Positions 3,596 through 64,000 of a DNA stretch of 64,000 bases are shown here, piece after piece. Each line of letters opens with the position of its first letter. The stretch's first letter is position 1. Position numbers and translations under genes: made by a program. The notes under the pieces are model-generated. The model searched no databases and had not been told where the DNA came from. It saw only the letters and a program-made list of their open reading frames with translations. Origin of the DNA: Candidatus Magasanikiibacteriota bacterium (GTDB lineage Bacteria > Patescibacteriota > Patescibacteriia > Magasanikbacterales > GWA2-37-8); assembly GCA_030650025.1 (NCBI GenBank), contig JAUSEN010000016.1, positions 9,428-73,427 of the forward strand, read 5' to 3'.

Positions 3596-4510
3596 ATGAC
3601 CAAGACCTGGTTTGAGGGATTCAGCAAGGCGGCCATCTTGGCCGCGACCCTGCTCGTGGGGTTCACGAGCGCGGGGTGCGAGGAGAGGAAGGCTTCTCTC
3701 CTCATCACCATGACCTTCGATCCGTCGGTCTCCGAGGAGACGAGGGTCGAGGTCCGGCAGGTTGGAACGGTTCTCCGCCTCGCCGTGTCCGGCGTCGAGG
3801 AGTTGGCCGGCGATGGCAAGCTCGAGAGCCAGTCGCTCGACACGGACAAGCAGACCCTCCGGTATCGCCCGCTCGTCCAGAGCGGTCGTCTCAACTTCCA
3901 TATGGTGTTTTACAGTGGAAGGGATGTCGCGGTCCCGCTGATCTTCGGGCGGGGAGCGGGCGACATCCAGGCCGGCATCGAAGTGCCGGTCGCGGTCGTC
4001 CTCTTCCCCTGTGCAGGGGATCAAACAAACTGCCCGGGGAAGATTCCGGACAAGAAGTGCACTCGTGACGACGAGTGCAACCCGGGCTTCTCCTGCGATG
4101 TGCCGAGCGGTCGGTGCCTGCAGAAGCAGGACCAGCCGGACGCGGCCGCGCCCGTCGACATGGCCACGCCGCCGGATCTCACCCCGATCCCGGATCTCCA
4201 GATCGAGATCGAGAAGGTCTTCCGGGTGATCAAGGCCGGATCCGCAGTATGTTGCGAGATCCGCGATGTCCGGGGCAATTGGCTCGAGGACATCAAGATC
4301 GCGGACGGAACCGAGATCAAAAACCCTAAGGCGAAGTACTGTTTTCCCTTCGCCAAGGGGCTCGACATCACCGGCCGGTGCAACTTGCCGGAGGCGGTCA
4401 TCGCCCTCGGCCAGGGGCGTGACGGGTGCGTCAAGAAGGGAGGTCGCATCGACACCCCCAGCTTCAACTGGACGGAGGGGGGGATCGCGGACGACTGCAG
4501 TCAGAAGTAG
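3596..4510 (+). CDS. Cys-rich lipoprotein, hypothetical, encoded in a high-GC island
   Basis: Lipobox LVGFTSAGC after a signal peptide; strong SD (caggaggaag) 6 nt upstream. GC of about 65% and GC3-rich codons, unlike the flanking genes. Confidence 0.55.
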   Translation: MTKTWFEGFSKAAILAATLLVGFTSAGCEERKASLLITMTFDPSVSEETRVEVRQVGTVLRLAVSGVEELAGDGKLESQSLDTDKQTLRYRPLVQSGRLNFHMVFYSGRDVAVPLIFGRGAGDIQAGIEVPVAVVLFPCAGDQTNCPGKIPDKKCTRDDECNPGFSCDVPSGRCLQKQDQPDAAAPVDMATPPDLTPIPDLQIEIEKVFRVIKAGSAVCCEIRDVRGNWLEDIKIADGTEIKNPKAKYCFPFAKGLDITGRCNLPEAVIALGQGRDGCVKKGGRIDTPSFNWTEGGIADDCSQK

Positions 4511-7478: not shown

Positions 7479-9275
7479 ATGCATAATAGGGGGCAGAATG
7501 GTTTTAGCTTAGTTGAAGTCATCGTGGCGGTGGCCGTGTTTGTGCTGTTTGCTCTTGGGGTTTACGGCGCGATAAATAGTATTTTGGTGATAGCGCGCGA
7601 GTCGCGCCTTAAAGTTGCTGTGGCTGGCGTGTTAAGCCAGCAAATGGAAATAATTCGTAGCGTGCCATATGACAGCGTCGGGACAATTAATGGCCTACCG
7701 AGCGGGGTGCTTTCAGCTACTTCTACGATTACCGATGGCGGCTTGGTTTTTAATGTCATTACTACAGTTAGTTTTACGGATGATGCCTTTGATGGAACCG
7801 CGACCAGTACACCCGCTGACACCAACCCGGCGGATTATAAAGTGGTGACCGTGGCAGTTAGGTGCGCCTTTTGCGTAAGCCAACAGCCAGCGGTGGGGCG
7901 CACGTTCGTGGCTCCTCCGGTTTTCGAGGGAGCGCCCGAGACCGGGTCGCTCTTTATTCATGTGGTGGACGCGGAAGGCTGGCCAGTACCTGGCGCCAGC
8001 ATCAGTATCAGAAATGATTTTGTTAATCCGCCAGTCGCTGTTGACGCGGTGACGGACATGGACGGCTGGTATACGCTATTAAGCGCTCCGACCAGCACTC
8101 TTGGCTATAATATTACTACCACTAAAAGTGGTTATTCGCTGGATTATACAGCGGCCTCTTCTACAAACAACCCCGCGCCCACCAAATTGCCGGCCAGCGT
8201 TAGTGTGGGGGCGGCCACGACCATCAGTTTCGCGATTGATTTAACAGCGACTCTAAATGTTAAGACAGTGGACAATGTCTGCGCGGGGGTTAGCGCCGTG
8301 CCTTTTGCGCTCTCTGGCCAGAAGTTGATTGGTTCTTTGCCAATGGTTTATAAATTTTATCAAGATTTTACTACTGATGGCGGTGGCGACAAAACTTTCA
8401 GCGCGCTCGAGTGGGATAATTATTCCATAATGTTAAATAGCGCTAATTATGACGTGGCGGGCACGGTGCCGCTTCTGCCTTTCCCACTTTTACCGGGGGC
8501 AGCGCAGAACGCTACGGTCGTAGTGGCTCCGCATTCTAATAATTCTTTATTGGTAATTGTTAAGGACGCGGTAACGGGGTTGCCGTTGGCGGACGCCACG
8601 GCCAGGCTAACTAAGTCTGGTTACGACCAATCCCTAGTGACTGGCCTTGGGTTTGTGGGGCAAACGGATTGGTCGCTCGGGAGCGGGCAAGAAAGTTTTG
8701 CCAACGCGCAAAAATATTTTTCGGATAGCGGCAGCTTGAATGTGGCCGGATCACCGGGCGATGTGGTGCTTAAATCGAGCGGAAATAATTCTTTTTTATC
8801 GTCCGGGTGGCTCGAATCCTCTACGTTTGACGCGCATACCAGCGACATTGCTTACGCTCATTTATATATAACGCCCACGGCGCAACCGCATAAAGCGGGA
8901 GCGACCCCGCTTCAGTTTCAGCTGGCCACGAGCAATTCGAGCTCGCCGGCGGTGTGGAATTTTTTGGGTTCAGATGGTTCAGCCAATACTTTTTATACCG
9001 CTACGAATACGGTGATAACATCGCTCCACAACGACCAACGTTATTTGCGTTACCGCGCCTTTTTGTCCACTGTTGATAATAAGTATACGCCCATACTCTC
9101 GGATTTTTATTATACATTCACGAGCAGTTGTACGCCTCCGGGCCAGGCATTTTTTACTAATTTAGCGGCCGCCACCTACACTTTGACTGTTTCTAAAACC
9201 GGGTATCAAACTAACAGCGGCTCTTTGAATATAGTGGGCAATGGGCAGGCGGTAGTTAATTTATCGCCCAGCTAG
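7479..9275 (+). CDS. large type IV pilin-like protein (prepilin leader MHNRGQNG|FSLVEV)
   Basis: Class III signal peptide with G|FSLVEV and a hydrophobic alpha-1 helix, followed by about 560 aa of Thr/Ser-rich beta-rich sequence. An extended -10 (tggtatact) lies at about 7455-7463. Confidence 0.75.
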   Translation: MHNRGQNGFSLVEVIVAVAVFVLFALGVYGAINSILVIARESRLKVAVAGVLSQQMEIIRSVPYDSVGTINGLPSGVLSATSTITDGGLVFNVITTVSFTDDAFDGTATSTPADTNPADYKVVTVAVRCAFCVSQQPAVGRTFVAPPVFEGAPETGSLFIHVVDAEGWPVPGASISIRNDFVNPPVAVDAVTDMDGWYTLLSAPTSTLGYNITTTKSGYSLDYTAASSTNNPAPTKLPASVSVGAATTISFAIDLTATLNVKTVDNVCAGVSAVPFALSGQKLIGSLPMVYKFYQDFTTDGGGDKTFSALEWDNYSIMLNSANYDVAGTVPLLPFPLLPGAAQNATVVVAPHSNNSLLVIVKDAVTGLPLADATARLTKSGYDQSLVTGLGFVGQTDWSLGSGQESFANAQKYFSDSGSLNVAGSPGDVVLKSSGNNSFLSSGWLESSTFDAHTSDIAYAHLYITPTAQPHKAGATPLQFQLATSNSSSPAVWNFLGSDGSANTFYTATNTVITSLHNDQRYLRYRAFLSTVDNKYTPILSDFYYTFTSSCTPPGQAFFTNLAAATYTLTVSKTGYQTNSGSLNIVGNGQAVVNLSPS

Positions 9276-9343
9276 CAGCCGCGCTTCAAAGGTCGTTCGC
9301 GACATCGCGAGAGACACTGCGCGGCATGATTTTGTCAAATCAT

Positions 9344-9940
9344 ATGAAATCGAATCAGAGTGTCAGAGGATTTACTTTAATTGAGGTCATGGTGGCCGTG
9401 GCGATATCGGCTTTGTTTTTTAGCGCGGTGGCGGAGATTTTTTTGACAAGCTTTAAAACCGCCGGGCTGGTGAGCGATGAGCTCGAAGGCCAGAGTGGCG
9501 CGCGGCGCGCGGTGAATGATTTTGTGAGCCAATTTAGGCTGGCTTCATACTCGAGCGCGGGTGACTACCCCCTGAAGACAGCCAATATTAATGAAATTGT
9601 TTTTTACGCCAATATTGATAAAGATAACTTAATTGAAAAAGTGCGTTATTATTTAACGGACACTACTTTATACCGAGGGGTAACTAAACCGATTGGCAAT
9701 CCCTTGTCGTATGGGTCAGCGAGTGAAACAGCGGAGACATTGCTCGAGGGGGTGCGGCTGAATGGGAACCCTTTATTTACTTATTACCCGGCGGGTATTG
9801 CCGAGGCGCTAGTCCAGCCAGTTGATATCACGACCGTGCGCTTGGCGGGCATTTATTTGCGCGTGGATAAGAAGCCAACGGCGTCGCCGACAGCTTGGAG
9901 CGTGGCGGCCCGGGCGCAGATGCGGAATCTTAAAAATTAA
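9344..9940 (+). CDS. type IV prepilin/pseudopilin (start moved to ATG 9344: MKSNQSVRG|FTLIEV)
   Basis: A classical prepilin leader appears only if the start is taken at the CATATG ATG (9344). The track's upstream ATG at 9326 lies inside the conserved leader palindrome. Confidence 0.75.
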   Translation: MKSNQSVRGFTLIEVMVAVAISALFFSAVAEIFLTSFKTAGLVSDELEGQSGARRAVNDFVSQFRLASYSSAGDYPLKTANINEIVFYANIDKDNLIEKVRYYLTDTTLYRGVTKPIGNPLSYGSASETAETLLEGVRLNGNPLFTYYPAGIAEALVQPVDITTVRLAGIYLRVDKKPTASPTAWSVAARAQMRNLKN

Positions 9941-14997: not shown

Positions 14998-15012
14998 ATG
15001 CCATTAATTATA

Positions 15013-15136
15013 GATTCGTTGTCATTCCGACGACGAAGCCTGCCCGACACGCTGACGCGAGTCATGCGGGCGAGGAGGAATCTCTGTCATCATGACCGGA
15101 GAGAGATCTCTCCTGCGACGTCGAGATGACAAAATG
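15013..15136. repeat. structured ~115-bp intergenic repeat, copy 1
   Basis: A 69-nt stretch (tgtcattccgacgacgaagcctgcccgacacgctgacgcgagtcatgcgggcgaggaggaatctctgtc) is identical to 24433-24546, and the 3' arm ...gagagagatctctcctgcg.cgtcgagatgacaa is conserved; outer arms (gtcattccgacgacg / cgtcgtcgagatgac) are complementary. Confidence 0.65.
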
Positions 15137-20451: not shown

Positions 20452-20958
20452 ATGATTAAAAATTTTTTAGTAAGTTTTATAATGATATTAGCCCTGATGC
20501 CCGGGGTCGCGTTGGCCGCGCCTAATATTGGTTTGGGTGAAGATGGGTTAGCGACAGGCGTCGCGGCGGGCGCGGGGTATGCCCCAGCCACGGACACGAC
20601 GCTGTCGGAATCGGTGGGTAAGGTCATTCGGGTGATTTTGTCCATGGTGGGAACAATTTTTCTGGCGCTAACGGTTTACGCCGGAATTCTGTGGATGACC
20701 GCGGCGGGAGCGGAAGACCAAATAGAAAAGGCGCAAAATATTATCAAGGCCGCGTCGCTTGGTTTAATAATCGTGATTGCCGCTTATGGCATAACCACTA
20801 TAGTGGTTGCGGCCATGACATTTGCCTCGCAACCAAATACCGGAGCAACTGTCGGGGGCAAGCCCAGCCAATCATTTTGGCAACAGCAAGGGCAGTATTG
20901 GCAAGACTGGGCTAACAATTGGAAAATTTCTACCAAGAGTATGTTTGGAATTAAATAG
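20452..20958 (+). CDS. pilin-module paralog 9
   Basis: VYAGILWMTAAGAEDQIEKAQNIIKAASLGLIIVIAAYGITTIV; about 85-90% nt identity to paralogs 7 and 8 across the module. Confidence 0.6.
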   Translation: MIKNFLVSFIMILALMPGVALAAPNIGLGEDGLATGVAAGAGYAPATDTTLSESVGKVIRVILSMVGTIFLALTVYAGILWMTAAGAEDQIEKAQNIIKAASLGLIIVIAAYGITTIVVAAMTFASQPNTGATVGGKPSQSFWQQQGQYWQDWANNWKISTKSMFGIK

Positions 20959-20962
20959 ATCG

Positions 20963-21052
20963 CGATTGCGCCGCGCTTCAAAGGACCCGCCCGCCTCGCT
21001 ACGCGAAGCGTTGCGGGCAGGCACTGCGCGGCACGATTTTGTTAAATCGCAT
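20963..21052 (+). promoter_or_regulatory. conserved structured 5' leader (variant B) ending in palindrome CGATTTTgttAAATCG + CATATG
   Basis: Shares gccgcgcttcaaagg...cactgcgcggca(c/t)gattt with leaders at 9278-9343 and 22911-22961; contains a nested GC palindrome homologous to 54606-54645. Confidence 0.55.
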
Positions 21053-21526
21053 ATGAAAAAACTTTTTGCGTATCAACTAGTGGCAGTATTCGTAGCGTTC
21101 CTCGCTTTGTCTTTTGTGGTAATAACCCCGGCGCGGGCGGAGGACACCAGCTCTGATATCCGGAAACAACTCGAGGCGGCGGGTGGCACGCAAGGCGCGA
21201 ATTATGGGGAAGCGGTTGACCCGCGAGTCACCGCGGCTTTGATTATTCGGGCGATGCTCGGCATGACTACGATTATTTTGATTATTTTAAATATTTACGC
21301 GGGAATCACTTGGATGACAGCCGGCGGAAACGAGGAAAAGGTGGACAAAGCCAAAACGACAATTAGAAATTCCACTATCGGACTGATTATTGTTTTGTCC
21401 GCTTACTCGATAACTGTTTTTGCCACTTACATCGCGCGGGGCCAGCAGTTTGGCCTCGGCGGCGGGCCTAACGCTTTATCGCGCGGTTTAGGCAATTTCT
21501 TCCAGTCGCGGCAGGGTCCGAATTAA
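21053..21526 (+). CDS. pilin-module paralog 10 (start moved to CATATG ATG 21053: MKKLFAYQLVAVFVAF...)
   Basis: The track ORF begins at 20822 but its first 77 aa are the translated GC-rich leader. A plausible signal peptide begins at 21053. C-terminal IYAGITWMTAGGNEEKVDKAKTTI module. Confidence 0.6.
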   Translation: MKKLFAYQLVAVFVAFLALSFVVITPARAEDTSSDIRKQLEAAGGTQGANYGEAVDPRVTAALIIRAMLGMTTIILIILNIYAGITWMTAGGNEEKVDKAKTTIRNSTIGLIIVLSAYSITVFATYIARGQQFGLGGGPNALSRGLGNFFQSRQGPN

Positions 21527-22315: not shown

Positions 22316-22506
22316 TATAAACCCTGCACCACAAGGGTGCAGGGCACCCTGAACTCTTGTAGTTCAGGGTGAACCGTAAAATGTAAGTTGATGATTAAAA
22401 TAGTTGGGTGCCCAATGGGAATTGTCTCCCTACGGGAGATCCCCCGTAGGGGGAAACCCATTTTGTACCAACTATAAAAAAAGTCGGATTGTTTATTATT
22501 GAATTG

Positions 22507-22580
22507 GGGTGCCCAATGGGAATTGAACCCATATTGTCGGTACCACAAACCGACGTAATAACCATTATACCATGGGCACC
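22507..22580 (-). tRNA. tRNA-His(GUG)
   Basis: Reverse complement folds as acceptor ggtgccc/gggcacc, anticodon stem tcggt/accga with loop ttGTGgt, T arm gggttcaattccc. Confidence 0.7.
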
Positions 22581-22712: not shown

Positions 22713-22910
22713 AAAAATAGCTTATCCCGCCACAGCGGGACCCCGCCTCGCGGCGGTGGGAAGGCTACTGTTTTATCCGCTCCGACGCCCCGCTTTGCGG
22801 GGGTCGGAGCCCCGACTTTACGTCGGGGTTAAACTATGGGATCAAGTGGCTCTATGGTAATCAATTTGGCCTTAAAAATCAAGTTATGGTATAATTTAAG
22901 AGTAACTAAT

Positions 22911-22961
22911 ATTTGCGCCGCGCTTCAGAGGACGTTGCGCGGCATGATTTCGTCAAATCAT
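22911..22961 (+). promoter_or_regulatory. conserved structured 5' leader (variant C) with palindrome TGATTTcgtcAAATCA + CATATG, preceded by an extended -10 (tggtataat at ~22888)
   Basis: ttgcgccgcgcttcagaggacgttgcgcggcatgatttcgtcaaatcatATG. Confidence 0.55.
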
Positions 22962-23324
22962 ATGTACAAGAAGATAAAAGTACTGTCGACTGTTTTTATA
23001 ACTTTTTTGGTTACTTGGCCAATGACAGCCCTGGCGCAATATGGTTTGAACGAAGCGGCCGGGAAAATGGGGTTTGATAGAAGCAAGAATGTTTACGGAG
23101 TGATTAGCCTCGTGGTGGGGGCAGCGTTGGCGTTTACCGGACTAGTGTTTTTTGGAATGATGATGTACGCTGGTGTGCGCTGGATGACCGCGCGCGGCAA
23201 CGAAGATTTGGCAGAGAAGGCCAAACAAGCCCTCGCGAATTCTACGATTGGTTTTGTAATCGTGGCGCTTTCTTACGCCCTGACGCGGTTTGTGTTTGGA
23301 GCGCTTAATTTGCCGACATTTTAA
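22962..23324 (+). CDS. pilin-module paralog 11 (start moved to ATG 22962: MYKKIKVLSTVFITFLVTWPMTALA)
   Basis: C-terminal MYAGVRWMTARGNEDLAEKAKQALANSTIGFVIVALSYALTRFV; the track ORF starts upstream inside the leader. Confidence 0.6.
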   Translation: MYKKIKVLSTVFITFLVTWPMTALAQYGLNEAAGKMGFDRSKNVYGVISLVVGAALAFTGLVFFGMMMYAGVRWMTARGNEDLAEKAKQALANSTIGFVIVALSYALTRFVFGALNLPTF

Positions 23325-23858: not shown

Positions 23859-24432
23859 AACTACTCACCCCTTAAAACACCCCGACCAACGTGTTGGCGT
23901 GTTTATTGATGTGCAAAATATGTATTATAGCGCGCGGAATTTGTTCCACGCCAAGGTTAATTTTGGAAATATTGTTAAAGAGGCCACGGCGGGCCGCAAA
24001 TTGATTCGCGCGATCGCTTACGTGGTGCGCACCGAGAGCAAAGAAGAACAGCCTTTTTTTGACGCCCTATATAACTTAGGAATAGAAACGCGCGAGAAGC
24101 CGCTCCAGATTTTTTGGGGGGGAGAAAAGAAGGCGGATTGGGATGTGGGGCTCGCGGTAGATGCCATTCGGCTCGCCCCAATGGTGGACGCGATTGTAAT
24201 CGTGTCAGGGGACGGGGACTACGTTCCGTTGATGGAATATTTGCGTAATCAGGGTAAACAAGTAGAAGTGGCGGCGTTTGGCGAGACTACCTCGAGCAAG
24301 CTAATTGAGTCGGTCGATGATTTTATGGATTTGAGCGCCGAAAAAGGCAAATTTTTGATCGGCGATAGAAAACTAGCCACACGTCTATTCCGGCCGAATC
24401 CAAAGATGCCAGCGCCGGTGATTAAAAAATAA
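23839..24432 (+). CDS. NYN/LabA-like domain protein
   Basis: [12 protein letters not shown]...[12 protein letters not shown]...[13 protein letters not shown] matches NYN ribonuclease-like domains. The start overlaps the rpsO 3' end. Confidence 0.7.
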
Positions 24433-24546
24433 CTGTCATTCCGACGACGAAGCCTGCCCGACACGCTGACGCGAGTCATGCGGGCGAGGAGGAATCTCTG
24501 TCCGATTGACGAGAGAGATCTCTCCTGCGTCGTCGAGATGACAACA
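24433..24546. repeat. structured ~115-bp intergenic repeat, copy 2
   Basis: See copy 1 (15013-15136). It begins immediately after the NYN stop codon. Confidence 0.65.
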
Positions 24547-26847: not shown

Positions 26848-26965
26848 AAAGATTGATGTTTAATTTGTTGTAGAGATGCCCCAGTAGAGACGCCCCAGCG
26901 GGGCGTCTCTACGTTATCTGGCGGTTGATTTTCTGGTTTAATTATGGTTAAATAGCGCGGCAATT

Positions 26966-27047: not shown

Positions 27048-27235
27048 CAAACACACAAGATACGAGTTCGAGTCCCCGCCCGAAACGCCTCCGGCGTAGC
27101 CGGGGCGGGCGGGTCTCCCGCGGCACAAAAGCAATATATTGTCTAAGCACGAATAAATTGCTATAATAGACACAGGGTGCGCCAAGCGCGCTCATGTTAA
27201 TTCGCGATCTCTTTTAGAATATAAACAAATAGAAT

Positions 27236-30529: not shown

Positions 30530-32310
30530 GGTGCGTACCGCAAAAAGGTCGTTTTTTACGACCGCCACGTCCCCTGCACCAGAACGCTTCGCGTCCGGTT
30601 CAGGGCTTCGCAGTCTAGCTCTGGCTACTAGCGAAGCGCCACTCGGGACCTCTAGAAAATTGCGTAGCTTACACAAAAAACGATGTATATTGCTACAAAA
30701 TTTACTCGAGTTACTCCAAGTGGTTAAAAACCCCACCCATTTTATTGGGCCGCTTGGAAAAGCGGCTTTTATTATTTTGGTCGGCTCAGATCGGTGAGAC
30801 AGAGATTTCTCCCCGCTCTAGGCGGGTCGAAATGACAGTGCAGAGTGGACTGGCTGGTACTTTGACAATTCAGGCAAGCACCATGCACCACCATAAACCA
30901 CAAGGGTTTATGGCAAACAAGGGTGCATGGCTAAATAACCATGAACCACAAGGGTTCATGGCAAGATTAATGCTTATTTTAAACATCAAGGTCTGGTGTT
31001 TAAAATAATAAAGGGTAACTTCATAAACATGAATATTGTCATGAAAAATTATGAAGTCAACTCAACGTAAGCACCATTTGGTGTTTTCGTTGTGTGCAAT
31101 TTCAACAAGAGCATATGGTGGATGCCTAGACACTAAAAGATGAAGAAGGACGTTGCAAGGTGCGATAAGCCTCGGGGAGCTCCTAAGCAAGCTGTGATCC
31201 GGGGATTTCCGAATGGGGAAACCCGTTACAAAGAAATTTGTAACATCGTATACTGAATTCATAGGTGTACGAGGAAGACCTGGCGAAGTGAAACATCTCA
31301 GTAGCCAGAGGAAAATAAATCGAAGAGATTCCCTTAGTAGTGGCGAGCGAAAAGGGATCAGCCTAAACCTTATACATGTTGTTGCCGTAACAGATTGATC
31401 GCAAGGTTAATTATGAGCGGCAGTTTAAAGACGCAGGTCGTTGTGTATATGGTGTAATAAGACAATTACGCGTCCGCCCTGCGGCGGACGGTGAAAATGT
31501 GACTTTCCTAGTAGAACGCTCTGGAACGAGCGGCCGCAGAGGGTAAGAGCCCCGTACGCGAAAGGAGTCTATATAATCATGGTAGTTGTTCTTGAGTAGG
31601 GCGGAACTCGTGAAATTCCGTCTGAATTCGGGCCGACTATGGTCTAAGGCTAAATACTTTTAGTGATCGATAGTGGACTAGTACCACGAGGGAAAGGTGA
31701 AAAGTAGCCCGGTGAGGGCGATGAAATAGTATCTGAAACCATATGTTTACAAAGAGCGGAAGACCGGAGTACCCAGAATTATTCCCCCCTACGGGGGGAA
31801 TAATTCTGGGTCCTGGTCGACCGTGTTCCTATTGAAGAATGAGCCTGCGAGTGTGCTGTATGTCGTTGCTTAAACCCTTCTGGGGTGGAGGCATAGCGAA
31901 AGCGAGTCTTAACGGGCGTATATAATGGCATGCACATAACCCGAAACCGGGTGAGCTATCCATGACCAGGATGAACCCTTCCGAAAGGAAGGGGGAGGTC
32001 CGAACACACGAGCCGTGCAACACTCGGTGATGAGTTGTGGATGGGAGAGAAATTCTAATCGAACTCGGTGATAGCTGGTTCTCCTTGAAATAGTTTTAGG
32101 ACTAGCCTCGCGCGTTCCCTTTGGCGGTAGAGCACTGGATGAGACTCGGGTCCTTCGGGATACCAGTTTCAATCAAACTCCGAATGCCGAAGATTAAAAG
32201 CGCGGGAGTCAGACTGTGGGGGCTAAGCTCCATAGTCAAAAGGGAAACAGCCCTGATCGCCAGCTAAGGTCCCTAAATCCATATTAAGTGTGAAAGGTGG
32301 TGTTAACTCT

Positions 32311-32348
<38 letters not shown>

Positions 32349-33172
32349 TAAAGAAAGCGTAACAGCTCACTGGTCAAGAGTTTTCGCGCCGAAAATGTAC
32401 CGGGGCTAAATATGGTACCGAAGCTGCGAATTGGTAGATCCTCCGGGATTTACCTCTGGTAAAGGAGCGTTGGTAGCTGCGCTGAAGCCATAGCCGCGAG
32501 GCGTGGTGGAGTGCTACCAAGTGAGAATGCAGGCATGAGTAACAATAAGGGAAGTGAGAATCTTCCCCGCCGAAAATCCAAGGTTTCCTGGGCAACGAGA
32601 CTCGACCCAGGGTTAGTCGATCCTAAGGCCAGGCCGAAAGGCGTAACCGATGGAAGAGCAGGTTAATATTCCTGCACTTGGTATAGTTTGTTTGTTAGTG
32701 CGCATAGTGAAGCTGACAGCGTGTTTTGAATATACACGTTTCTTTACCCCGACGTGAAGTCGGGGCAGGGACGAAGATGAAGCCTTCGGGTGGAGTCAAC
32801 TGTCGGGGACGCTGTGCCTAGAAAAGCTAATAAACGTTAAGCTATATCAAACCGTACCGTAAACCGACACAGGTAGGTGAGTCGAGAAGACTAAGGCGTA
32901 CGAGAGAACCCTCTTTTAGGAACTCTGCAATACAGCGGCCGTAACTTAGGGATAAGGCCCGCCCCGATGTAAAAATCGGGGTTACAACAAAAGACGCACT
33001 GCGACTGTTTACCAAAAACACAGCTCCCTGCAAAAGCGCAAGCTGAAGTATAGGGAGTGATGCCTGGCCAGTGTCAGAACGTTAAGGCGAGAGGTTATCC
33101 GGTCATCCGACCGGAGAAGCCTTGAACTGAAGCGCTGATGAACGCCGGCGGTAACTATAACCGTCCTAAGGT

Positions 33173-33408
33173 AGCGGACTTGAGAAATCGAGCACGCTAG
33201 GATTGGGACGGATATAGCAAAAAGTAAACAATCATTAAAGATGAGCAGAGTCATCGAAATATTAACAGCCATTCAAAAAATGCTACCTTGCTTTGCAGTA
33301 ATGCAAAGAATAATCCGGTCATAGCTTATGAGAGACTATACGCTATGCTCCTCCGACGAAACTCGGAGGAAGAAGATTTAGTCCTTCGTCATTAAACAGG
33401 AAACGAAG
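33173..33408 (+). mobile_element. group I-like intron (ORF-less), inserted after the U of GGU|AGCG (E. coli ~L1931, helix 69/70 region)
   Basis: The conserved ccgtcctaaggt.agcgaaattccttgtcgg is interrupted by 236 nt; the 5' exon ends in U and the insert ends in G. Confidence 0.6.
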
Positions 33409-33430
33409 AGCGAAATTCCTTGTCGGGTAA

Positions 33431-33682
33431 ACCAAGAACTTGCCCCCTGGTCGAGTAATTGACCTTGAAGCAATAGCTGTATCGGTGGAACCCATAAAAA
33501 ATCGTGCAGATTAATTATGGGCAATACCGAGGGAAGTCCTCCCAAAATGGAGTGACCCCGTAGAGACTACACGCTGTCTCCCGAGTTATTCGGGATGAAG
33601 ATATAGTCCGATCCTGCCGAGTAATTGGCAGCCCTACGAAAATCAAAAATCTAAAATCATAAATCGAAAATTCGTAGATGGA
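33431..33682 (+). mobile_element. second 23S insertion (~252 nt) within GGGUAA|GUUCCGACC (E. coli ~L1951-1953); intron-like, ORF-less
   Basis: Conserved flanks gggtaa and gttccgacctgcacgaatgg are contiguous in E. coli; boundaries are uncertain by 1-2 nt. Confidence 0.55.
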
Positions 33683-34208
33683 GTTCCGACCTGCACGAAT
33701 GGCATAACGATAGTGCGACTGTCTCAAAGAGGGACTCGGTGAAATTGCAAGGAAGGTGAAGATGCCTTCTACCCGCAACTAGACGAAAAGACCCCGTGAA
33801 GCTTTACTACAGCTTGCTATTGGTATACGTGCACGTATGTTGAGCGTAGGTGGGACCCGCAAGGGGCCAATGAGACACCACCCTTATGTATATGTATGCC
33901 TAATCTCTGCCCGTGAATCCGGGGAGGGAGACAGTGGCTGGCGGGTAGTTTATCTGGGGCGGATGCCTCCTAAAATGTAACGGAGGCGTTTACAAAGGTA
34001 GGCTTAGCGCGGATGGAAATCGCGCTGGACGTGCAAACGCAAAAGCCTGCTTTACTGCAAGGGCTACAACCCGCGCAGTTGCGAAAGCAGAAGTTAGTGA
34101 ACCGACCATCCTATATAGGAAGGTGGAAGATCAACGGATAAAAGCTACTCCGGGGATAACAGGCTGATCGCGCCCAATAGTCCACATAGACGGCGCGGTT
34201 TGGCACCT

Positions 34209-34573
34209 TAAATTATCGGGGTGCATACAAAGTGATTTGTTTCCAAGTTTTTTCGTCTAAAACAATTATGTTAAGATAGAAATAGAGATTTAAATCGGCT
34301 TATAACGGTGAACCCGTCATCCCGCCTAAGGCGGGATCGGCAATACCGTGGGAAGTCGCCCATTAACTGTGGGTTGACCCCGTAACGACTGACCCGAAAG
34401 GGGAGACTCGGTTACAGTTAGTAATCGGGTAATACGCCGACTCTTATATTAATCAAACTGAGATCATGCGACTCACGCCCCGAGCAAGTCCCGAAAGGGA
34501 CAAGTCGAGGGGTCCGCTAACATCCAGTATAAGAAGAAGATATAGTCTGCCCCATACGAAAGTATGGAATCAT
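34209..34573 (+). mobile_element. third 23S insertion (~365 nt) in the peptidyl-transferase-centre strand GGCACC|U(A)CGAUGUCGG (E. coli ~L2500); intron-like, ORF-less
   Basis: tttggcacc ... tacgatgtcggctcatc flanks; no long ORF inside. Confidence 0.55.
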
Positions 34574-34636
34574 GTACGATGTCGGCTCATCGCATCCTGG
34601 GGGTGAAGAAGCTCCCAAGGGTTTGGCTGTTCGCCA

Positions 34637-34688
<52 letters not shown>

Positions 34689-35124
34689 CTATCTGTTGCG
34701 GGCGCAGAATGTTGCAAAGACTCTTCCCTAGTACGAGAGGACCGGGAAGAATAAACCTCTGGTGTGCGAGTTGTTCCGTCAGGAGCATTGCTCGGTAGCT
34801 ACGTTTAGCACGGATAAACGCTGAAAGCATCTAAGCGTGAAGCCGTCTTTAAGATTAACATTCGTTATAGACCCCTTGTAGATTACGAGGTTGATAGGCT
34901 CTACGTGTAAGCACAGTAATGTGTTGAGCGGAGGAGTACTAATCGGTCGAGCGCACAACGAAAGCATTAAGTGGTGCTCACCTCTTCGGTGAGTCTACGA
35001 GTTATGTTTGCCATGTCATTCGACATGGCCTTGCCTGAATTTAGTCATTGTAGTAAACTATTTTGAAAATTCCCCCGCCAAAAGCGGGATCAGCTCGCTA
35101 ACGCGAGCCGAAAAAAGAACTAAT

Positions 35125-38676: not shown

Positions 38677-38735
38677 AAATAAAATGATATTGTATCTGTA
38701 GGGGCGGGGTTACCCCGCCCCTACGTTGTATATTT

Positions 38736-54191: not shown

Positions 54192-55277
54192 ATGCAATAC
54201 CAAATTTTAGAAGTAAACCCAGTTTCCGGTTATGAATTGTTAGATTCGGGTGATGGCGAAAAATTAGAGCGCTATGGCGATGTTGTAGTTGTACGGCCAG
54301 ACCCACAGGCCTTATGGCGCAAGAAGCTGCCGGAGAGCGAGTGGCAAAAAGCCAACGCTTATTTTAAACCCCGCATCACCATAAACCACAAGGGTTTATG
54401 GCAAACAAGGGTGCAGGGCGAGCGTGATAGTAAGAGCGCAGAGTGGCAGACGCGCAGCGAGATTCCAGCACGGTGGCCAATTGAATTTGGGGGTTTAAAG
54501 TTTTGGATTAAACTTTCGGCTTTTAAGCATACGGGGTTATTTCCGGAACAGCTTCCGAATTGGGTTTGGCTGCAAGAAAAAATACGATTGGCGAGACCCC
54601 ACCCCCGCCCGACTTCGCTACGGCGAAGCCGTTGCGGGCGGGCTGCCCTCCCCTTTGCGAAGGGGATGGGAAGCGATACCCCCTCTGTCGCAACGGAGGG
54701 GGAAGGGGGAGGACTGGCGCGCGTTTTAAATTTATTTGGCTATACCGGTGGGGCGACGCTCGCTTGCGCGCAGGCTGGCGCCAGTGTTGTCCATGTGGAT
54801 GCTAGCAAGTCCGCCATTGGATGGGGGAGGGATAACGCGGTGCTTTCCGGCTTAGATAAAAAACCAATTCGTTGGATACTAGACGATGCCGCGACGTTTG
54901 TGCGTCGCGAAATTAAGCGCGGCAACAAATATGATGGCATCATTATGGATCCGCCGGCTTTTGGACACGGACCTAACCGAGAACTTTGGAAAATAGAAGA
55001 TCATTTTTTACCGCTTCTTGAGGATTGTAAAAAAATATTAAGCAGAGAGCCTCTGTTTTTTTTGGTGAATGGCTATGCCTCGGGGTATTCGGCCGTGGCT
55101 TATGAAAATAGTTTAGGTGATTTGTTAAAACACACCCCCCGGCCCCCTCTTGTTAGAGGGGGAGGCGAAAAAGATAATCTAGGAAATATAGAAATTGGTG
55201 AATTGACGATTGCCGAGAGCGGGAGTGGCAGAATTTTGCCAGCTGGTATTTTCGCGCGCTGGAGCGCCCCGCAGTAA
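54192..55277 (+). CDS. RlmI/RlmK-like SAM-dependent rRNA methyltransferase carrying in-frame palindromic insertions
   Basis: NLFGYTGGATLACAQAGA...VDASKSAI (motif I) and DPPAFG (motif IV). GC-rich low-complexity inserts at 54377-54418, 54593-54718 and 55131-55168. Confidence 0.65.
   Translation: MQYQILEVNPVSGYELLDSGDGEKLERYGDVVVVRPDPQALWRKKLPESEWQKANAYFKPRITINHKGLWQTRVQGERDSKSAEWQTRSEIPARWPIEFGGLKFWIKLSAFKHTGLFPEQLPNWVWLQEKIRLARPHPRPTSLRRSRCGRAALPFAKGMGSDTPSVATEGEGGGLARVLNLFGYTGGATLACAQAGASVVHVDASKSAIGWGRDNAVLSGLDKKPIRWILDDAATFVRREIKRGNKYDGIIMDPPAFGHGPNRELWKIEDHFLPLLEDCKKILSREPLFFLVNGYASGYSAVAYENSLGDLLKHTPRPPLVRGGGEKDNLGNIEIGELTIAESGSGRILPAGIFARWSAPQ
54593..54718. repeat. nested GC-rich palindromic mini-element (in-frame inside CDS)
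   Basis: gagaccccaccc...ccctcccctttgcgaagggga.gggaa...ccccctc.gtcgcaacggagggggaagggggagg; related to 61947-62033 and 20985-21020. Confidence 0.65.
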
Positions 55278-57116: not shown

Positions 57117-57155
57117 CGTCCCGACGTACGTCGGGACATGATTTCGTAAAATCAT
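57117..57155 (+). promoter_or_regulatory. leader module: hairpin gtcccgac-gta-cgtcgggac + palindrome TGATTTcgtaAAATCA abutting the start codon
   Basis: Ends at CATATG 57153-57158. Confidence 0.55.
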
Positions 57156-58304
57156 ATGCGAAAGCTTAAGTTTTTGGGGGCAATGGCAGCAGGTTTGGCG
57201 CTTTTCGGCGCCGGGTGTTCTTTTACTCCGCCAGGAGAGAAGTCTGTTACAGAGGGTAGCTATGTCCCTAAAACAGCTGATACTAGCCCAATTAAAATTG
57301 GTTGGGTGGGGCCTTTGACAGGGGACGCGGCGAGTGTTGGTAAAGACGCGTTGACAGCGGCGCAGTTGGCAGTGGAGGAAGTGAATGCCGCGGGCGGCAT
57401 TAACGGGCGAATGCTTGAACTTGTGGCCGAAGACGGCAAATGTAATCCTAAAGACGCGGCTACGGCAGGGAATAAGCTTATTAATGTAGACAAAGTCCCG
57501 GCGATTGTGGGGACGGCGTGTTCAGGCGAGATGATGGCAATTGCGCCAACTGCCGAACAGAATAAAACAATTATGGTGGGTTACTGCGCTTCGGCTCCGA
57601 CGGTCAGCGCGGCGGGTGATTATATCTTTCGCACGTATCCGTCCGATGTTCTGCAATCCAAATTTGTCGCTGAATATGTTTATAATACTCTTGGCAAGAA
57701 GAAAGTGGCCACGCTTGCCGTCCTCGGCGATTGGGGGACTGGCCTTAAGAACGGCTTTGAACAGCGCTTTAAAGAATTAGGCGGAGAAGTTGTTTCTTCT
57801 CAAGACTATGTGCAGGAAAGTCGCGATTTACGCACACAGTTGACTAAAGCCAAGGACAGCCAGCCCGAGATTTTATTTTTTGTCGGATACACAGAAGCTT
57901 CGATTGCTGGTTTAAAACAAGCTAAAGAGCTCGGCCTTAATGTATCGATAATTGGCGGCGATGCCTGGGATGACACCAAGATTCATGCTAATTCTTTTGC
58001 CGAGGGCATTATGTACAGTGTCGGGGCCGCGCCCCAGTATGACCTGGCCTGGGTAGAAAAATTAAAACAGAAGGGCGCTACCACCAATGTCTGCGTGCCT
58101 CGTTCGTATGACAACGTCAAACTCCTGGCAGAAATTATGAAACGGACTGGGACGGACACTGCTAAAATTAAAGACGAGCTGTACAAGGTGCAAGGTTATC
58201 AAGGAATTGGTGGCATAGTAAATATGGACAGCAACGGTGACAATACTTCTGCCCAGTTCCAAATTAAAGTAGTTAAGAACGGCAAAGCCGAAGCGGCAAA
58301 ATAA
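57156..58304 (+). CDS. branched-chain amino acid ABC transporter substrate-binding lipoprotein (LivJ/LivK family)
   Basis: Lipobox FGAGCS; IKIGWVGPLTGDAASVGKD...INGRMLELVAEDGKC. Confidence 0.8.
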   Translation: MRKLKFLGAMAAGLALFGAGCSFTPPGEKSVTEGSYVPKTADTSPIKIGWVGPLTGDAASVGKDALTAAQLAVEEVNAAGGINGRMLELVAEDGKCNPKDAATAGNKLINVDKVPAIVGTACSGEMMAIAPTAEQNKTIMVGYCASAPTVSAAGDYIFRTYPSDVLQSKFVAEYVYNTLGKKKVATLAVLGDWGTGLKNGFEQRFKELGGEVVSSQDYVQESRDLRTQLTKAKDSQPEILFFVGYTEASIAGLKQAKELGLNVSIIGGDAWDDTKIHANSFAEGIMYSVGAAPQYDLAWVEKLKQKGATTNVCVPRSYDNVKLLAEIMKRTGTDTAKIKDELYKVQGYQGIGGIVNMDSNGDNTSAQFQIKVVKNGKAEAAK

Positions 58305-60156: not shown

Positions 60157-60228
60157 CACAGATTACCTGCCCGCAATGCTTCGCATAGCGAGGCGGGCGG
60201 GCGCAGATTCATTTGGATTAAACAGATT

Positions 60229-63465: not shown

Positions 63466-63538
63466 GTGTCTCCATGAGGAATTGAACCTCAATTACAGGC
63501 TTCGGAGGCCTGTGTTTTATCCGTTAAACTATGGAGAC
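63466..63538 (-). tRNA. tRNA-Arg(CCG)
   Basis: Reverse complement: acceptor gtctcca/tggagac, D stem gttt/aaac, anticodon stem caggc/gcctg with loop ctCCGaa, T arm tgaggttcaattcctca. Confidence 0.8.
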
Positions 63539-63784
63539 CTTATTTAAAAAATCCCTAATCTGTTGTCGCAGTAATCTTTTGCCTTCTGTCGTTTTTAAAA
63601 ATTTTTCTCTCCTTTCTGCATCGGATTTTTCTAGGTAGCATTCATAATGAACTAACATTGGCATTTTATTTTTAGTCGAAGCAACTCTATCCTGTTTATG
63701 TTGGTTCACACGTTTAGCCAAGTCAGCAGTTGACCCTTTGTATAAATCGCCATTTTTTAATAATAGAATATATGTATAATACAT
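63524..63784 (-). CDS. GIY-YIG nuclease-family small protein
   Basis: YYTYILLLKNGDLYKGSTADLAKRVNQH matches GIY-x10-YIG. The 3' end overlaps tRNA-Arg by ~15 nt, so the true C-terminus may be shorter. Confidence 0.7.
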   Translation of the reverse strand: MYYTYILLLKNGDLYKGSTADLAKRVNQHKQDRVASTKNKMPMLVHYECYLEKSDAERREKFLKTTEGKRLLRQQIRDFLNKVSIV

Positions 63785-64000
63785 ATTGTGGTTAACTTCG
63801 CCCAGTCATTCGACTGGGCGCCCGGTCGTATGACCGGGCGGAGGCCGGTATCCTATCCGTTGAACGACGAGGACTAAACTAAACGCCGCACAGCGCGCAG
63901 CGCCTCGTATATCCTATACTGGAGAGGGGAAATAATCAAGTCAAAAGTCCCGGGCTTTTCTGCTGTATAGCCACCAAAATTAATTTTAAACCGGGTCACA

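What the first reader, a model, noticed from the sequence alone, without database searches (positions are those of the whole stretch)
20963..21055. Leader variant B carries a nested GC palindrome that is homologous to a segment inserted inside a methyltransferase ORF (54606-54645)
In the leader of paralog 10, the segment cccgcccgcctcgctacgcgaagcgttgcgggcagg (about 20985-21020) is a hairpin-within-hairpin. It is clearly related to ccccgcccgacttcgctacggcgaagccgttgcgggcggg, which lies in-frame in the RlmI-like gene. The track ORF 20822-21526 translates this leader as 77 aa of Arg/Ala-rich sequence, which is almost certainly not coding. This links the leader hairpins to the mobile palindromic element family.
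Basis: seen in the sequence. Interest (0 to 1): 0.55.

Follow-up and report, generated by a model that had tools for sequence, protein, structure and literature searches.

The report
Tiny mobile palindrome nested in leader
The GC-rich hairpin in front of this pilin gene is one copy of a sharply bounded 36-base palindromic element that also sits in frame inside genes and recurs almost unchanged in uncultured bacteria assigned to several phyla, and I found no description of it in what I could search.

Summary
Bases 20986-21021 are a 36-bp palindromic unit. It is 34/36 identical to an inverted copy at 60166-60201, between two ABC-transporter genes. It is clearly related (local score 52; shuffles 16.8±2.5) to a 39-bp copy at 54604-54642, in frame in an intact RlmI-like methyltransferase. 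The closest orthologue of that gene lacks the copy.

The 77-aa N-terminal extension is not coding: none of the 120 listed homologues (128-213 aa) aligns to it.

The unit sits in the apical loop of a recurring two-hairpin leader. A paralogous leader at 22913-22964 is the empty version. Orthologous loci have no leader at all.

Consensus: CCCGCCYGCA-TCGCTAYGCGAAGCRT-TGCGGGCRGG, with unrelated flanks. Source records are labelled CPR, Verrucomicrobiota, Lentisphaerae and others. About 45% of copies lie inside long ORFs, including rpoA, S9 and IleRS.

Two overlapping inner hairpins covary. A subset of copies has flanking direct repeats of 5-13 nt.

Best reading: a small non-autonomous mobile palindrome, here tolerated in a leader hairpin. 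What mobilises it is unknown. An association with small GIY-YIG nuclease genes beside tRNA genes is a lead only.

The parts
20959..21052 (+). Intergenic leader between the stop of pilin paralogue 9 (TAG 20956-20958) and ATG 21053 of paralogue 10. It is one of four copies of a two-hairpin leader module in the window.
   Evidence: (repeat families D6 and D20). Orthologous loci have only 12, 11 or -14 nt here.
20968..20976 (+). 5' arm (GCGCCGCGC) of the outer GC hairpin of the leader
   Evidence: folds. The same arm occurs in the leaders at 9275-9346 and 22913-22964.
20986..21021 (+). Unit A: a 36-bp palindromic element inserted in the apical loop of the leader hairpin
   Evidence: The paralogous leader at 22913-22964 has ACGT at this position.
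21026..21032 (+). 3' arm (GCGCGGC) of the outer GC hairpin
21034..21049 (+). Proximal AU-rich hairpin CGATTT-TGTT-AAATCG just before the start codon. One base pair is changed on both sides relative to ATGATTT-NNNN-AAATCAT in the other leaders.
21053..21526 (+). Pilin paralogue 10, 157 aa, with a signal peptide starting MKKLFAYQLVAV. This is the real gene.
   Evidence: Pfam PF18895 T4SS_pilin. NCBI calls a 157-aa product and the listed homologues are 128-213 aa.
20822..21052 (+). Spurious N-terminal extension of the mechanical ORF 20822-21526. It overlaps paralogue 9 and reads through the leader.
   Evidence: no listed homologue covers more than 68% of the 234-aa query.
54604..54642 (+). Unit B: a 39-bp variant with three 1-nt insertions that lengthen both inner hairpins. 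It is in frame and encodes PRPTSLRRSRCGR.
   Evidence: Absent from the closest orthologue L120. It lies in the gene's large insert (about residues 134-176), which the AlphaFold2 model leaves without secondary structure; residues 142-172 have pLDDT below 50.
54192..55277 (+). RlmI-like class I SAM-dependent methyltransferase, 361 aa against about 290 aa for typical orthologues. It is intact and carries several palindrome-derived inserts.
60166..60201 (-). Unit C: 34/36 identical to A and in the opposite orientation, lying between the livM-like and livG-like genes. It is flanked by CAGATT...CAGATT.
27074..27113 (-). Unit D: a diverged 40-bp relative (CCCGCCCGCC-CCGGCTACGCCGGAGGCGT-TTCGGGCGGGG) that keeps both inner hairpins. 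It lies downstream of tRNA-Leu.
   Evidence: (E = 0.0015)
22913..22964 (+). Leader L3: the 'empty' version of the same leader (loop TTCAGAGGACGT), ahead of another T4SS_pilin gene (ATG 22962). A TATAAT box lies about 20 nt upstream of it.
9275..9346 (+). Leader L1: the same module with a different 22-nt hairpin at the same loop position, ahead of a prepilin-type (N_methyl) gene
57117..57158 (+). Leader L4: a different GC hairpin followed by the same AU hairpin, ahead of a periplasmic binding protein gene
63524..63784 (-). Small (86-aa) GIY-YIG nuclease gene. It is a candidate partner for the palindromes, as a lead only.
   Evidence: Pfam PF01541, E = 4.8e-12; context

Best explanation
The nested palindrome at 20986-21021 is one copy of a small, non-autonomous, selfish palindromic DNA element.

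Anatomy. The unit is 36 bp: two 10-bp inverted arms (CCCGCCYGCA / TGCGGGCRGG) around a 16-nt core. The core can form either of two overlapping 4-bp mini-hairpins, TCGC-TAY-GCGA or AYGC-GAA-GCRT. As a result each DNA strand, read 5' to 3', shows the same shape.

Behaviour. The unit copies itself to new places at the DNA level and in either orientation. Copies persist where a 12-codon, stop-free, hydrophilic insert or an extra hairpin does no harm. Such places are intergenic spacers, loops of existing hairpins, and flexible linkers or surface loops of proteins.

In this window it landed in three places:
- the apical loop of a leader hairpin ahead of a pilin gene (A);
- an intercistronic spacer of a transporter operon (C);
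- as a 39-bp variant, an already insert-rich loop of a methyltransferase, just before SAM-binding motif I (B).

Effect in the leader. The unit leaves the base of the pre-existing stem intact and roughly doubles the predicted stability of the hairpin (-20.5 to -45 kcal/mol). The most likely consequence is neutral to mildly modulatory, through mRNA stability or read-through from the upstream paralogue.

Shown: homology, sharp boundaries, insertion relative to orthologues and paralogues, in-frame occurrence, covariation, and flanking direct repeats.
Inferred: the copy-and-insert mechanism and any regulatory effect.
Unknown: the enzyme responsible.
For: Repeat family within the window.
- A and C are 34/36 identical, in opposite orientation, at unrelated loci. 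Both share the minority base C at position 10, which only 8 of 123 outside copies have.
- A and B score 52 against shuffles of 16.8 ± 2.5.

Discrete unit.
- In 123 copies from other genomes the information content is 1.2-2.0 bits at nearly every position from 1 to 36 (about 0.8-1.0 at the four covarying sites) and falls to 0.2 bits or less at positions 0 and 37.
A second scan anchored only on the arms gave at least 120 metagenome loci.

Insertion events.
- The closest methyltransferase orthologue lacks B but keeps the neighbouring hairpins.
- The paralogous leader L3 lacks A at the same loop position.
- Orthologous pilin loci have spacers of 12, 11 and -14 nt.
- Twelve-residue inserts (PARNASHSDAGG and similar) sit in the rpoA linker and the S9 N-terminus, and are absent from orthologues. 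IleRS carries three such unit-derived inserts.
- Flanking direct repeats of 6 nt or more within 2 nt of the junction occur in 11 of 212 copies, against 0.7 expected (maximum 4 in 200 permutations). Their lengths are 5-13 nt.

DNA-level element rather than a strand-specific RNA.
- Of the 55 copies inside long ORFs, 23 are on the same strand as the ORF and 32 on the opposite strand.
- Five of the six reading frames of the unit are free of stops.

Constrained structure, measured on the arm-anchored set where the core was free to vary.
- Hairpin 1: 81% of cells paired; pair 11-21 is A-U in 15 and U-A in 14 sequences.
- Hairpin 2: 85% paired; pair 16-26 is A-U 17, G-C 5, U-A 3.
- For both hairpins, none of 500 shuffles reached the observed values, and both far exceed the slid controls.
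- The centred palindrome is only 64% paired.
- B and D keep both hairpins despite indels.

Tolerated position in the protein. B falls in the insert between helix 118-133 and strand 177-181, which the AlphaFold2 model leaves without secondary structure; residues 142-172 have pLDDT below 50.
Against: - No autonomous parent element or transposase with matching ends was found. Apart from small GIY-YIG genes, no protein family recurs near the units.
- Only about 5-9% of copies show flanking direct repeats, and their length varies. The insertion chemistry is therefore unclear, and the repeats could reflect microhomology rather than staggered cuts.
- Near-identity of a 36-bp selfish sequence across phyla is hard to explain by vertical descent. 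It requires either frequent horizontal transfer or strong constraint from a shared factor, and neither is shown.
- No presence/absence polymorphism between near-identical strains was available, so current mobility is not demonstrated.
- Phylum labels come from MAG record titles and were not checked independently.
Confidence: 0.8

Rival explanations
1. The hairpin is a functional part of the leader. It could be a transcription attenuator or terminator between paralogues 9 and 10, or a 5'-stabiliser selected for pilin expression. Its resemblance to the methyltransferase segment would then be incidental, or the unit would have been co-opted.
For: - The unit extends a conserved leader hairpin and more than doubles its predicted stability.
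- The stem is followed by ATTTTGTT.
- The leader module precedes four secreted or surface-protein genes.
Against: - Leaders L1, L3 and L4 work with other apical sequences or with none.
- Orthologous loci have no leader at all.
- The same unit occurs inverted, inside ORFs, and in unrelated genes and phyla.
- The unit has no conserved T-run of its own.
- Co-option in this one place cannot be excluded.
Confidence: 0.12
2. The units are made or moved by free-standing GIY-YIG endonucleases that home into tRNA and tmRNA genes. The palindromes would be the ends, footprints or recognition structures of those cassettes, and the solo copies would be their MITE-like derivatives. This would parallel the RAYT-REP partnership.
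For: - GIY-YIG ORFs occur in 18 of 243 loci. In 9-10 of those a unit lies within 0-130 nt of the ORF, where roughly 3% would be expected by chance.
- The contexts recur: tRNA-Val (L011, L015, L222), tRNA-Gln (L109, L195), and smpB (L060, L174).
- At the same site in an orphan tRNA-Gln fragment, the unit is present in opposite orientation and as a different allele in two genomes.
- In the window a GIY-YIG gene (63524-63784) sits between a truncated and a complete tRNA-Arg(CCG), next to two GC hairpins.
Against: - Only about 4% of units are near such a gene.
- The orthologous contexts reduce the number of independent observations to about five.
- Orphan tRNA fragments are non-essential DNA, where any insert would survive.
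- The hairpins next to the window's own GIY-YIG gene belong to a different sequence family.
- There is no biochemical evidence.
Confidence: 0.2
3. The similar hairpins arose independently, as convergent GC-rich terminator-like stems, and are not homologous copies.
For: The window is full of GC-rich palindromes belonging to many sequence families.
Against: - A and C are 34/36 identical.
- A pattern with 21 specified bases found at least 119 loci, against my rough estimate (not computed with a tool) of about one chance match in 596 Gb.
- The boundaries are sharp, and the core is shared as well as the stems.
Confidence: 0.01
4. The 234-aa ORF 20822-21526 is real, and the palindrome encodes part of an Arg/Ala-rich N-terminal domain.
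For: The frame is open across the leader.
Against: - No listed homologue covers more than 68% of the 234-aa query; the listed homologues are 128-213 aa, and NCBI annotates 157 aa.
- The extension overlaps paralogue 9 by 137 nt in another frame.
- A signal peptide starts at the ATG at 21053.
- The unit is stop-free in five of six frames regardless of context.
Confidence: 0.01

Closest known systems
Rickettsia palindromic elements (RPE; Ogata et al. 2000, from my own knowledge; mentioned in papers listed)
   Same: A selfish palindromic repeat found both between genes and in frame inside intact, conserved protein genes. It adds a hydrophilic peptide at tolerated sites and occurs in small genomes of host-dependent bacteria.
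   Different: - RPEs are about 100-150 bp and are confined to Rickettsia.
- This unit is 36-39 bp, with no expected sequence relation (not tested).
- It is found in records from several phyla and shows two overlapping covarying mini-hairpins.
REP / REPIN elements mobilised by RAYT transposases (PMC3116915, PMC3733652)
   Same: A 20-40-bp imperfect palindrome in many dispersed copies, which may depend on a trans-acting nuclease. It is often nested in or near other hairpins.
   Different: - It has no GTAG or CGTC tag; the ends are CCCG...CGGG.
- About 45% of copies are inside ORFs rather than extragenic.
- Copies are mostly single rather than inverted doublets.
- No Y1 transposase recurs nearby; the only recurring neighbour is a small GIY-YIG gene.
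Small dispersed repeats (SDR) of heterocyst-forming cyanobacteria (Elhai et al. 2008 Genome Res 18:1484; cited in PMC3116915; content recalled from my own knowledge, paper not held)
   Same: Very small (tens of bp) mobile repeats with no known transposase. They are found nested in other repeats and revealed by comparison with orthologous sites that lack them.
   Different: The sequences and host range differ. The SDR families are lineage-restricted, whereas this unit is almost identical across phyla.
Bacterial MITEs (review PMC10969869)
   Same: Terminal inverted repeats, non-autonomous, with flanking direct repeats in some copies.
   Different: - At 36 bp it is far below the usual 50-500 bp.
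- No parent IS with matching ends was found.
- The direct repeats vary in length (5-13 nt) and are detectable in only a minority of copies.
GC clusters of yeast mitochondrial DNA (from my own knowledge)
   Same: Short GC-rich palindromes spreading in an AT-richer genome, sometimes in frame in genes.
   Different: Those occur in organelles, have unrelated sequences, and have a characteristic target.

Membership tests
REP/REPIN (RAYT-associated) | Imperfect palindrome of 20-40 bp in many dispersed copies | tested here: met
   36-39 bp; 4 copies in 64 kb; more than 230 loci elsewhere
REP/REPIN (RAYT-associated) | Conserved GTAG or CGTC tetranucleotide at one end (PMC3733652 abstract) | tested here: not met
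   The unit starts CCCG and ends RGG, and no GTAG or CGTC lies at or next to either end. Other palindromes in the window do carry GTAG...CTAC.
REP/REPIN (RAYT-associated) | Extragenic location | tested here: not met
   55 of 124 copies lie at least 40 codons deep inside long ORFs. Units sit in frame in the methyltransferase, rpoA, S9 and IleRS.
REP/REPIN (RAYT-associated) | Linked Y1 (RAYT) transposase gene flanked by the repeats | tested here: inconclusive
   All-against-all clustering of ORFs from 243 loci found no recurrent family near units except small GIY-YIG genes. No dedicated Y1_Tnp profile search was run, and whole genomes were not available.
Rickettsia palindromic elements | In-frame insertion in intact protein genes at tolerated sites | tested here: met
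Rickettsia palindromic elements | Length of about 100-150 bp and membership of the RPE sequence families of Rickettsia | tested here: not met
   The unit is 36-39 bp. Hosts are labelled CPR, Verrucomicrobiota and others. Sequence comparison with RPE consensus sequences was not done.
MITE | Terminal inverted repeats | tested here: met
   The 10-bp arms CCCGCCYGCA / TGCGGGCRGG
MITE | Target-site duplication of fixed length | tested here: inconclusive
   Direct repeats of 5-13 nt flank 11-18 of 212 copies, well above chance. They are variable in length and absent from most copies.
MITE | Autonomous IS with the same ends | tested here: not met
   None was seen in the window or in 243 loci. There were no matches in plasmid or phage collections.
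Intrinsic terminator | GC hairpin directly followed by a T-run | tested here: not met
   There is no base preference after position 36 of the unit. The scan did not call a terminator at 20960-21045. The composite leader hairpin is followed by ATTTTGTT, but that stretch is the 5' arm of the next hairpin.
CRISPR repeat | Regularly spaced array of identical repeats | tested here: not met
   Copies are solitary. The only Rfam CRISPR hit had E = 9.
Known RNA family (Rfam 15) | Match at or above the gathering score | tested here: not met
   No family matched at 20940-21070 or 22880-22975.

The most novel reading that the evidence does not exclude
The 36-bp unit belongs to a cross-phylum superfamily of mini-palindromes, defined by shared 10-bp arms and interchangeable double-hairpin cores. 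On this reading the units are moved in trans by free-standing GIY-YIG homing-type endonucleases that target tRNA and tmRNA genes. That would be a nuclease-palindrome partnership comparable to RAYT-REP but not described before. It would be able to write 12-codon inserts into essential genes and to spread between phyla.
Probability: 0.15. Interest if true: 0.85.

Novelty: new variant of a known kind. Interest (0 to 1): 0.62.

Why it matters
Gene calling. Gene callers and readers should not translate this leader. The 36-mer is stop-free in five of six frames and will keep producing false Arg/Ala-rich extensions and small 'hypothetical proteins' in genomes of CPR bacteria and Verrucomicrobiota.

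Biology. This is a sharply bounded 36-bp sequence that is nearly identical in bacteria labelled as different phyla. It sits in frame in RNA polymerase alpha, ribosomal protein S9, an aminoacyl-tRNA synthetase and an rRNA methyltransferase. It is far smaller than the bacterial MITEs described in the literature, and no transposase is known for it.

Open questions it makes testable:
- how such a small element is copied;
- why its two overlapping hairpins are conserved;
- how it crosses phylum boundaries.

Use. Its presence or absence could also serve as a fine-scale marker of strain history in uncultured lineages.

Tried and rejected
- Rfam. No family matched at gathering score over the whole window other than rRNA, tRNA and a group I intron. 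Permissive searches of the leader gave only sub-threshold noise: mraW RNA at E = 0.012 on the wrong strand and a CRISPR repeat at E = 9.
- Literature. The exact 14-mers, six encoded peptides, and CPR combined with REP or MITE terms returned nothing relevant. The Elhai 2008 paper is not held.
- Vectors. The PLSDB plasmids and the GenBank phage collection gave no match to either main allele. IMG/VR gave 3 contigs. A phage or plasmid vector is therefore not supported.
- Recurrent neighbouring genes. Clustering 5,180 ORFs from 243 loci gave only housekeeping clusters and the GIY-YIG family.
- Preference for loops of larger hairpins. The signal is weak: 5.7% of copies have flanks with 7 or more complementary bases, against 2.8% in permutations. 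The nested context of copy A is therefore not the rule.
- The centred full-length palindrome as the conserved structure. This was rejected in favour of two offset hairpins.
- Strain-level empty site for copy C. The livG-like product is not on record.
- CpG-deamination reading. The four differences between the two main alleles are all C-to-T or G-to-A changes at CpG sites. I judged this the ordinary route to compensatory changes in GC stems rather than evidence of methylation.
Full report
**What is in the window.**

The window comes from a Candidatus Magasanikbacteria (CPR) metagenome-assembled genome. The methyltransferase product is 100% identical to an NCBI protein on a 130,414-bp contig.

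Between the stop codon of one T4SS_pilin paralogue (TAG 20956-20958) and the ATG at 21053 of the next lies a 94-nt spacer. Its centre, 20986-21021, reads CCCGCCCGCCTCGCTACGCGAAGCGTTGCGGGCAGG. It is enclosed by a second stem, GCGCCGCGC (20968-20976) paired with GCGCGGC (21026-21032). The region folds as a hairpin within a hairpin at -45 kcal/mol.

**The homology is real.**

It aligns with the leader unit at 35 of 40 columns with three single-base gaps. The score is 52, against 16.8 ± 2.5 (maximum 27) for 500 shuffles.

Two more copies exist:
- 60166-60201 on the minus strand is 34/36 identical to the leader copy. It lies between livM-like and livG-like genes.
- 27074-27113 on the minus strand is a diverged relative downstream of tRNA-Leu.

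**The long ORF is not a gene.**

A search with the 234-aa translation of 20822-21523 returned 128 homologues. The 120 listed are 128-213 aa long and cover at most 68% of the query, which fits matches confined to its C-terminal 157 aa. NCBI's own call for this genome is 157 aa. The extension also overlaps the upstream paralogue, and a signal peptide begins at ATG 21053.

**The copy in the methyltransferase is an insertion.**

The protein is 361 aa, whereas typical orthologues are about 290 aa. All invariant columns are retained, so the gene is intact.

At the DNA level the closest orthologue (L120) shares the two hairpins that follow the unit but lacks the 39-nt unit itself.

An AlphaFold2 model (pTM 0.81) places the unit inside the gene's large insert, between helix 118-133 and strand 177-181, the VLNLF strand of SAM motif I. 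The model assigns no secondary structure there, and residues 142-172 have pLDDT below 50.

**The leader is a repeated module, and the unit sits in its loop.**

Repeat finding showed that both flanks of the unit recur elsewhere in the window (families D6 and D20). Four genes are preceded by the same architecture, a GC-rich hairpin followed directly by the AU hairpin ATGATTT-NNNN-AAATCAT and then ATG:
- 9275-9346, before a prepilin-type gene;
- 20962-21055;
- 22913-22964, before another T4SS_pilin gene;
- 57117-57158, before a periplasmic binding protein.

The leader at 22913 has GCCGCGC-TTCAGAGGACGT-TGCGCGGC, which is the same stem with no insert. The leader at 9275 has a different 22-nt hairpin at the same loop position.

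The leader under study has A plus the 36-mer at that position. Removing the 36-mer in silico changes the predicted energy from -45 to -20.5 kcal/mol and leaves the stem base intact.

In the syntenic loci of the three nearest orthologues, the two pilin genes are separated by 12, 11 or -14 nt. The whole leader is therefore a gain in this lineage.

**The unit outside the window.**

The 119 record titles divide as follows:

| Label in record title | Loci |
|---|---|
| CPR / Patescibacteria (including one single-cell genome) | 56 |
| Verrucomicrobiota (including contigs over 1 Mb) | 35 |
| Lentisphaerae (all from one genome) | 6 |
| Kiritimatiellia | 2 |
| 'Gammaproteobacteria' MAGs | 8 |
| 'Bdellovibrionales' MAGs | 4 |
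| Terriglobales | 1 |
| Margulisiibacteriota | 1 |
| Unclassified | 6 |

Aligning 123 copies with their flanks shows an exact 36-bp unit. The information content is 1.2-2.0 bits at nearly every position from 1 to 36 (about 0.8-1.0 at the four covarying sites) and 0.2 bits or less at positions 0 and 37. The consensus is CCCGCCYGCA TCGCTAYGCGAAGCRT TGCGGGCRGG.

The two main alleles are CCCGCCTGCATCGCTATGCGAAGCATTGCGGGCAGG (35 copies) and CCCGCCCGCATCGCTACGCGAAGCGTTGCGGGCGGG (17 copies).

The two near-identical window copies share C at position 10, which only 8 of the 123 outside copies have. That suggests copying within the genome.

**Copies in coding regions.**

Of 124 copies, 55 lie at least 40 codons deep in long ORFs, on either strand relative to the ORF. 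The unit is 12 codons long and has no stop in five of its six frames.

Frame use is skewed. In 43 of the 55 the unit starts on a codon boundary. The commonest reading is PARNAS(H/R)SDAGG.

Examples checked against orthologues that lack the insert are the interdomain linker of RNA polymerase alpha and the N-terminus of ribosomal protein S9. An isoleucyl-tRNA synthetase-like protein carries three such inserts, two of them in tandem.

**Structure.**

A second scan was anchored only on the two 10-nt arms, so the core was free to vary. It gave at least 120 metagenome loci and several core classes.

On the 35 distinct 36-mers, two overlapping hairpins are both maintained:

| Structure | Cells paired | Varying pair | Shuffles reaching observed value |
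|---|---|---|---|
| Hairpin 1: 11-14 with 18-21 | 81% | 11-21: A-U 15, U-A 14 | 0 of 500 |
| Hairpin 2: 16-19 with 23-26 | 85% | 16-26: A-U 17, G-C 5, U-A 3 | 0 of 500 |
| Centred palindrome | 64% | - | (shuffled mean 61%) |

Both hairpins also far exceed the slid controls.

The 19- and 20-nt cores, and window copies B and D, keep both hairpins with 5-bp stems.

Because of the two-fold layout, each strand read 5' to 3' shows arm, mini-hairpin, 5 nt, arm.

The second hairpin contains GCGAAGC. From my own knowledge, this heptamer forms an unusually stable DNA mini-hairpin (Hirao and colleagues).

**Signs of insertion.**

Short direct repeats flank a minority of copies. Eleven of 212 have 6 nt or more within 2 nt of the junction, against 0.7 expected and a maximum of 4 in 200 permutations. 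Lengths run from 5 to 13 nt. Copy C has CAGATT on both sides.

Nesting inside larger hairpins, as in copy A, is only weakly enriched: 5.7% against 2.8%.

**What moves it?**

No transposase recurs near the units. The only recurring neighbour is a small GIY-YIG gene. It is present in 18 of 243 loci, and in 9-10 of those it lies within 0-130 nt of a unit.

These cassettes sit beside tRNA or tmRNA-linked genes, with a duplicated tRNA fragment that is interrupted by the unit:
- tRNA-Val, between the variable loop and the T-stem;
- tRNA-Gln, in the D-loop. In two genomes the unit is at the same site but in opposite orientation and as a different allele.

The window has its own 86-aa GIY-YIG gene (Pfam PF01541, E = 4.8e-12). 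Its 3' end overlaps tRNA-Arg(CCG), and it is preceded by a truncated tRNA-Arg(CCG) 5' half and two other GC hairpins.

This is a lead, not a demonstration. Orphan gene fragments would accumulate any insert, and the independent contexts number about five.

**Comparison with known elements, and verdict.**

The element behaves like Rickettsia palindromic elements, REP/REPINs, cyanobacterial small dispersed repeats and MITEs. It fails a defining feature of each:
- length and host range for RPEs;
- the GTAG or CGTC tag and extragenic location for REPs;
- size, a fixed target duplication and a parent IS for MITEs.

Rfam, plasmid, phage and literature searches found nothing that names it.

I therefore file it as a new variant of a known kind, small selfish palindromes.

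Noticed in passing
window 9275-9346, 20962-21055, 22913-22964, 57117-57158; also L198 (minus strand, about 4050-4135): A conserved two-hairpin leader: a GC hairpin followed directly by ATGATTT-NNNN-AAATCAT and the start codon. It precedes four genes for secreted or surface proteins (two T4SS_pilin genes, one N_methyl pilin-like gene, one periplasmic binding protein). One base pair of the AU stem is changed on both sides in the 21034-21049 copy. There is no Rfam match. The module is absent from orthologous pilin loci, so it looks like a portable 5'-UTR cassette.
   Followed up: partly
window 63466-63873 (minus strand): An 86-aa GIY-YIG gene (63524-63784) whose 3' end overlaps a complete tRNA-Arg(CCG) (63466-63538). 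It is preceded by the 5' half of another tRNA-Arg(CCG), cut right after the anticodon, and by two GC hairpins (CCGCCCGGTCATACGACCGGGCG and CGCCCAGTCGAATGACTGGGCG). It resembles a free-standing homing-endonuclease cassette in a tRNA gene.
   Followed up: partly
L011 1280-1690, L015 370-770, L222, L109 800-1300, L195 100-500: In Verrucomicrobiota, Margulisiibacteriota and unassigned metagenome contigs, small GIY-YIG genes are flanked by a complete tRNA (Val or Gln) and a duplicated tRNA fragment. The fragment is interrupted at a fixed point by the 36-mer. L109 and L195 carry the unit at the same site in opposite orientation.
   Followed up: partly
window 22403-22480: A partial duplicate of the 3' end of tRNA-His (the real gene is at 22505-22579, minus strand). 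It is interrupted in the T-loop by two small hairpins, TCTCCCTACGGGAGA and TCCCCCGTAGGGGGA.
   Followed up: no
window 54368-54419, 54649-54705, about 55140-55170; 30880-30964; 22318-22370: The methyltransferase carries at least four other palindrome-derived in-frame inserts. The first (54368-54419) is 92% identical to a repeat just upstream of the 23S rRNA gene (30880-30931) and related to 22318-22347. Many orthologues have unrelated inserts at the same three sites.
   Followed up: partly
window 15000-15110 and 24414-24524: Two copies (85% identical) of a roughly 110-bp composite palindrome (GTCATTCCGACGACGAAGC ... GCGTCGTCGAGATGAC), each downstream of a gene. Each contains a nested unit with related arms, CCTGCCCGACACGCTGACGCGAGTCATGCGGGCGAGG.
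   Followed up: no
window 26884-26912, 38698-38724, 49651-49678: Perfect palindromes that begin GTAG and end CTAC, which is REP-like tagging. The third lies in frame inside ORF 49198-50397 and encodes GVETLHATSLP. By eye that ORF is a succinyl-CoA synthetase beta-like protein; this was not tested.
   Followed up: no
window 31093-34959: The 23S rRNA gene spans 3,867 nt against a 2,925-nt model. It contains a group I intron (33419-33631) and further insertions.
   Followed up: no
L134, L149, L168, L171, L181, L190, L194, L203, L217, L231: A 39-nt class with the same arms but a mirror-repeat core: CCCGCCCGCA-TTCCTCCCCAGACCCCTCC-TGCGGGCGGG. There are 23 copies in the metagenome scan. They often come as two copies near contig ends, with conserved flanks (gaaaggttcaaaa ... 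aagaaagccgaggc).
   Followed up: no
L005, L036, L067, L087, L100, L110 (Lentisphaerae GWF2_57_35): In this genome the 36-mer is the core of a longer repeated palindrome (agcccgtcttcgc...gggagaagccgggcc). The unit can evidently be carried inside larger repeats.
   Followed up: no
Genome-contig loci L001-L119: Units inside ORFs are strongly biased to begin on a codon boundary (43 of 55). The favoured reading is PARNAS(H/R)SDAGG. This could reflect either selection on the peptide or a preference at insertion.
   Followed up: partly
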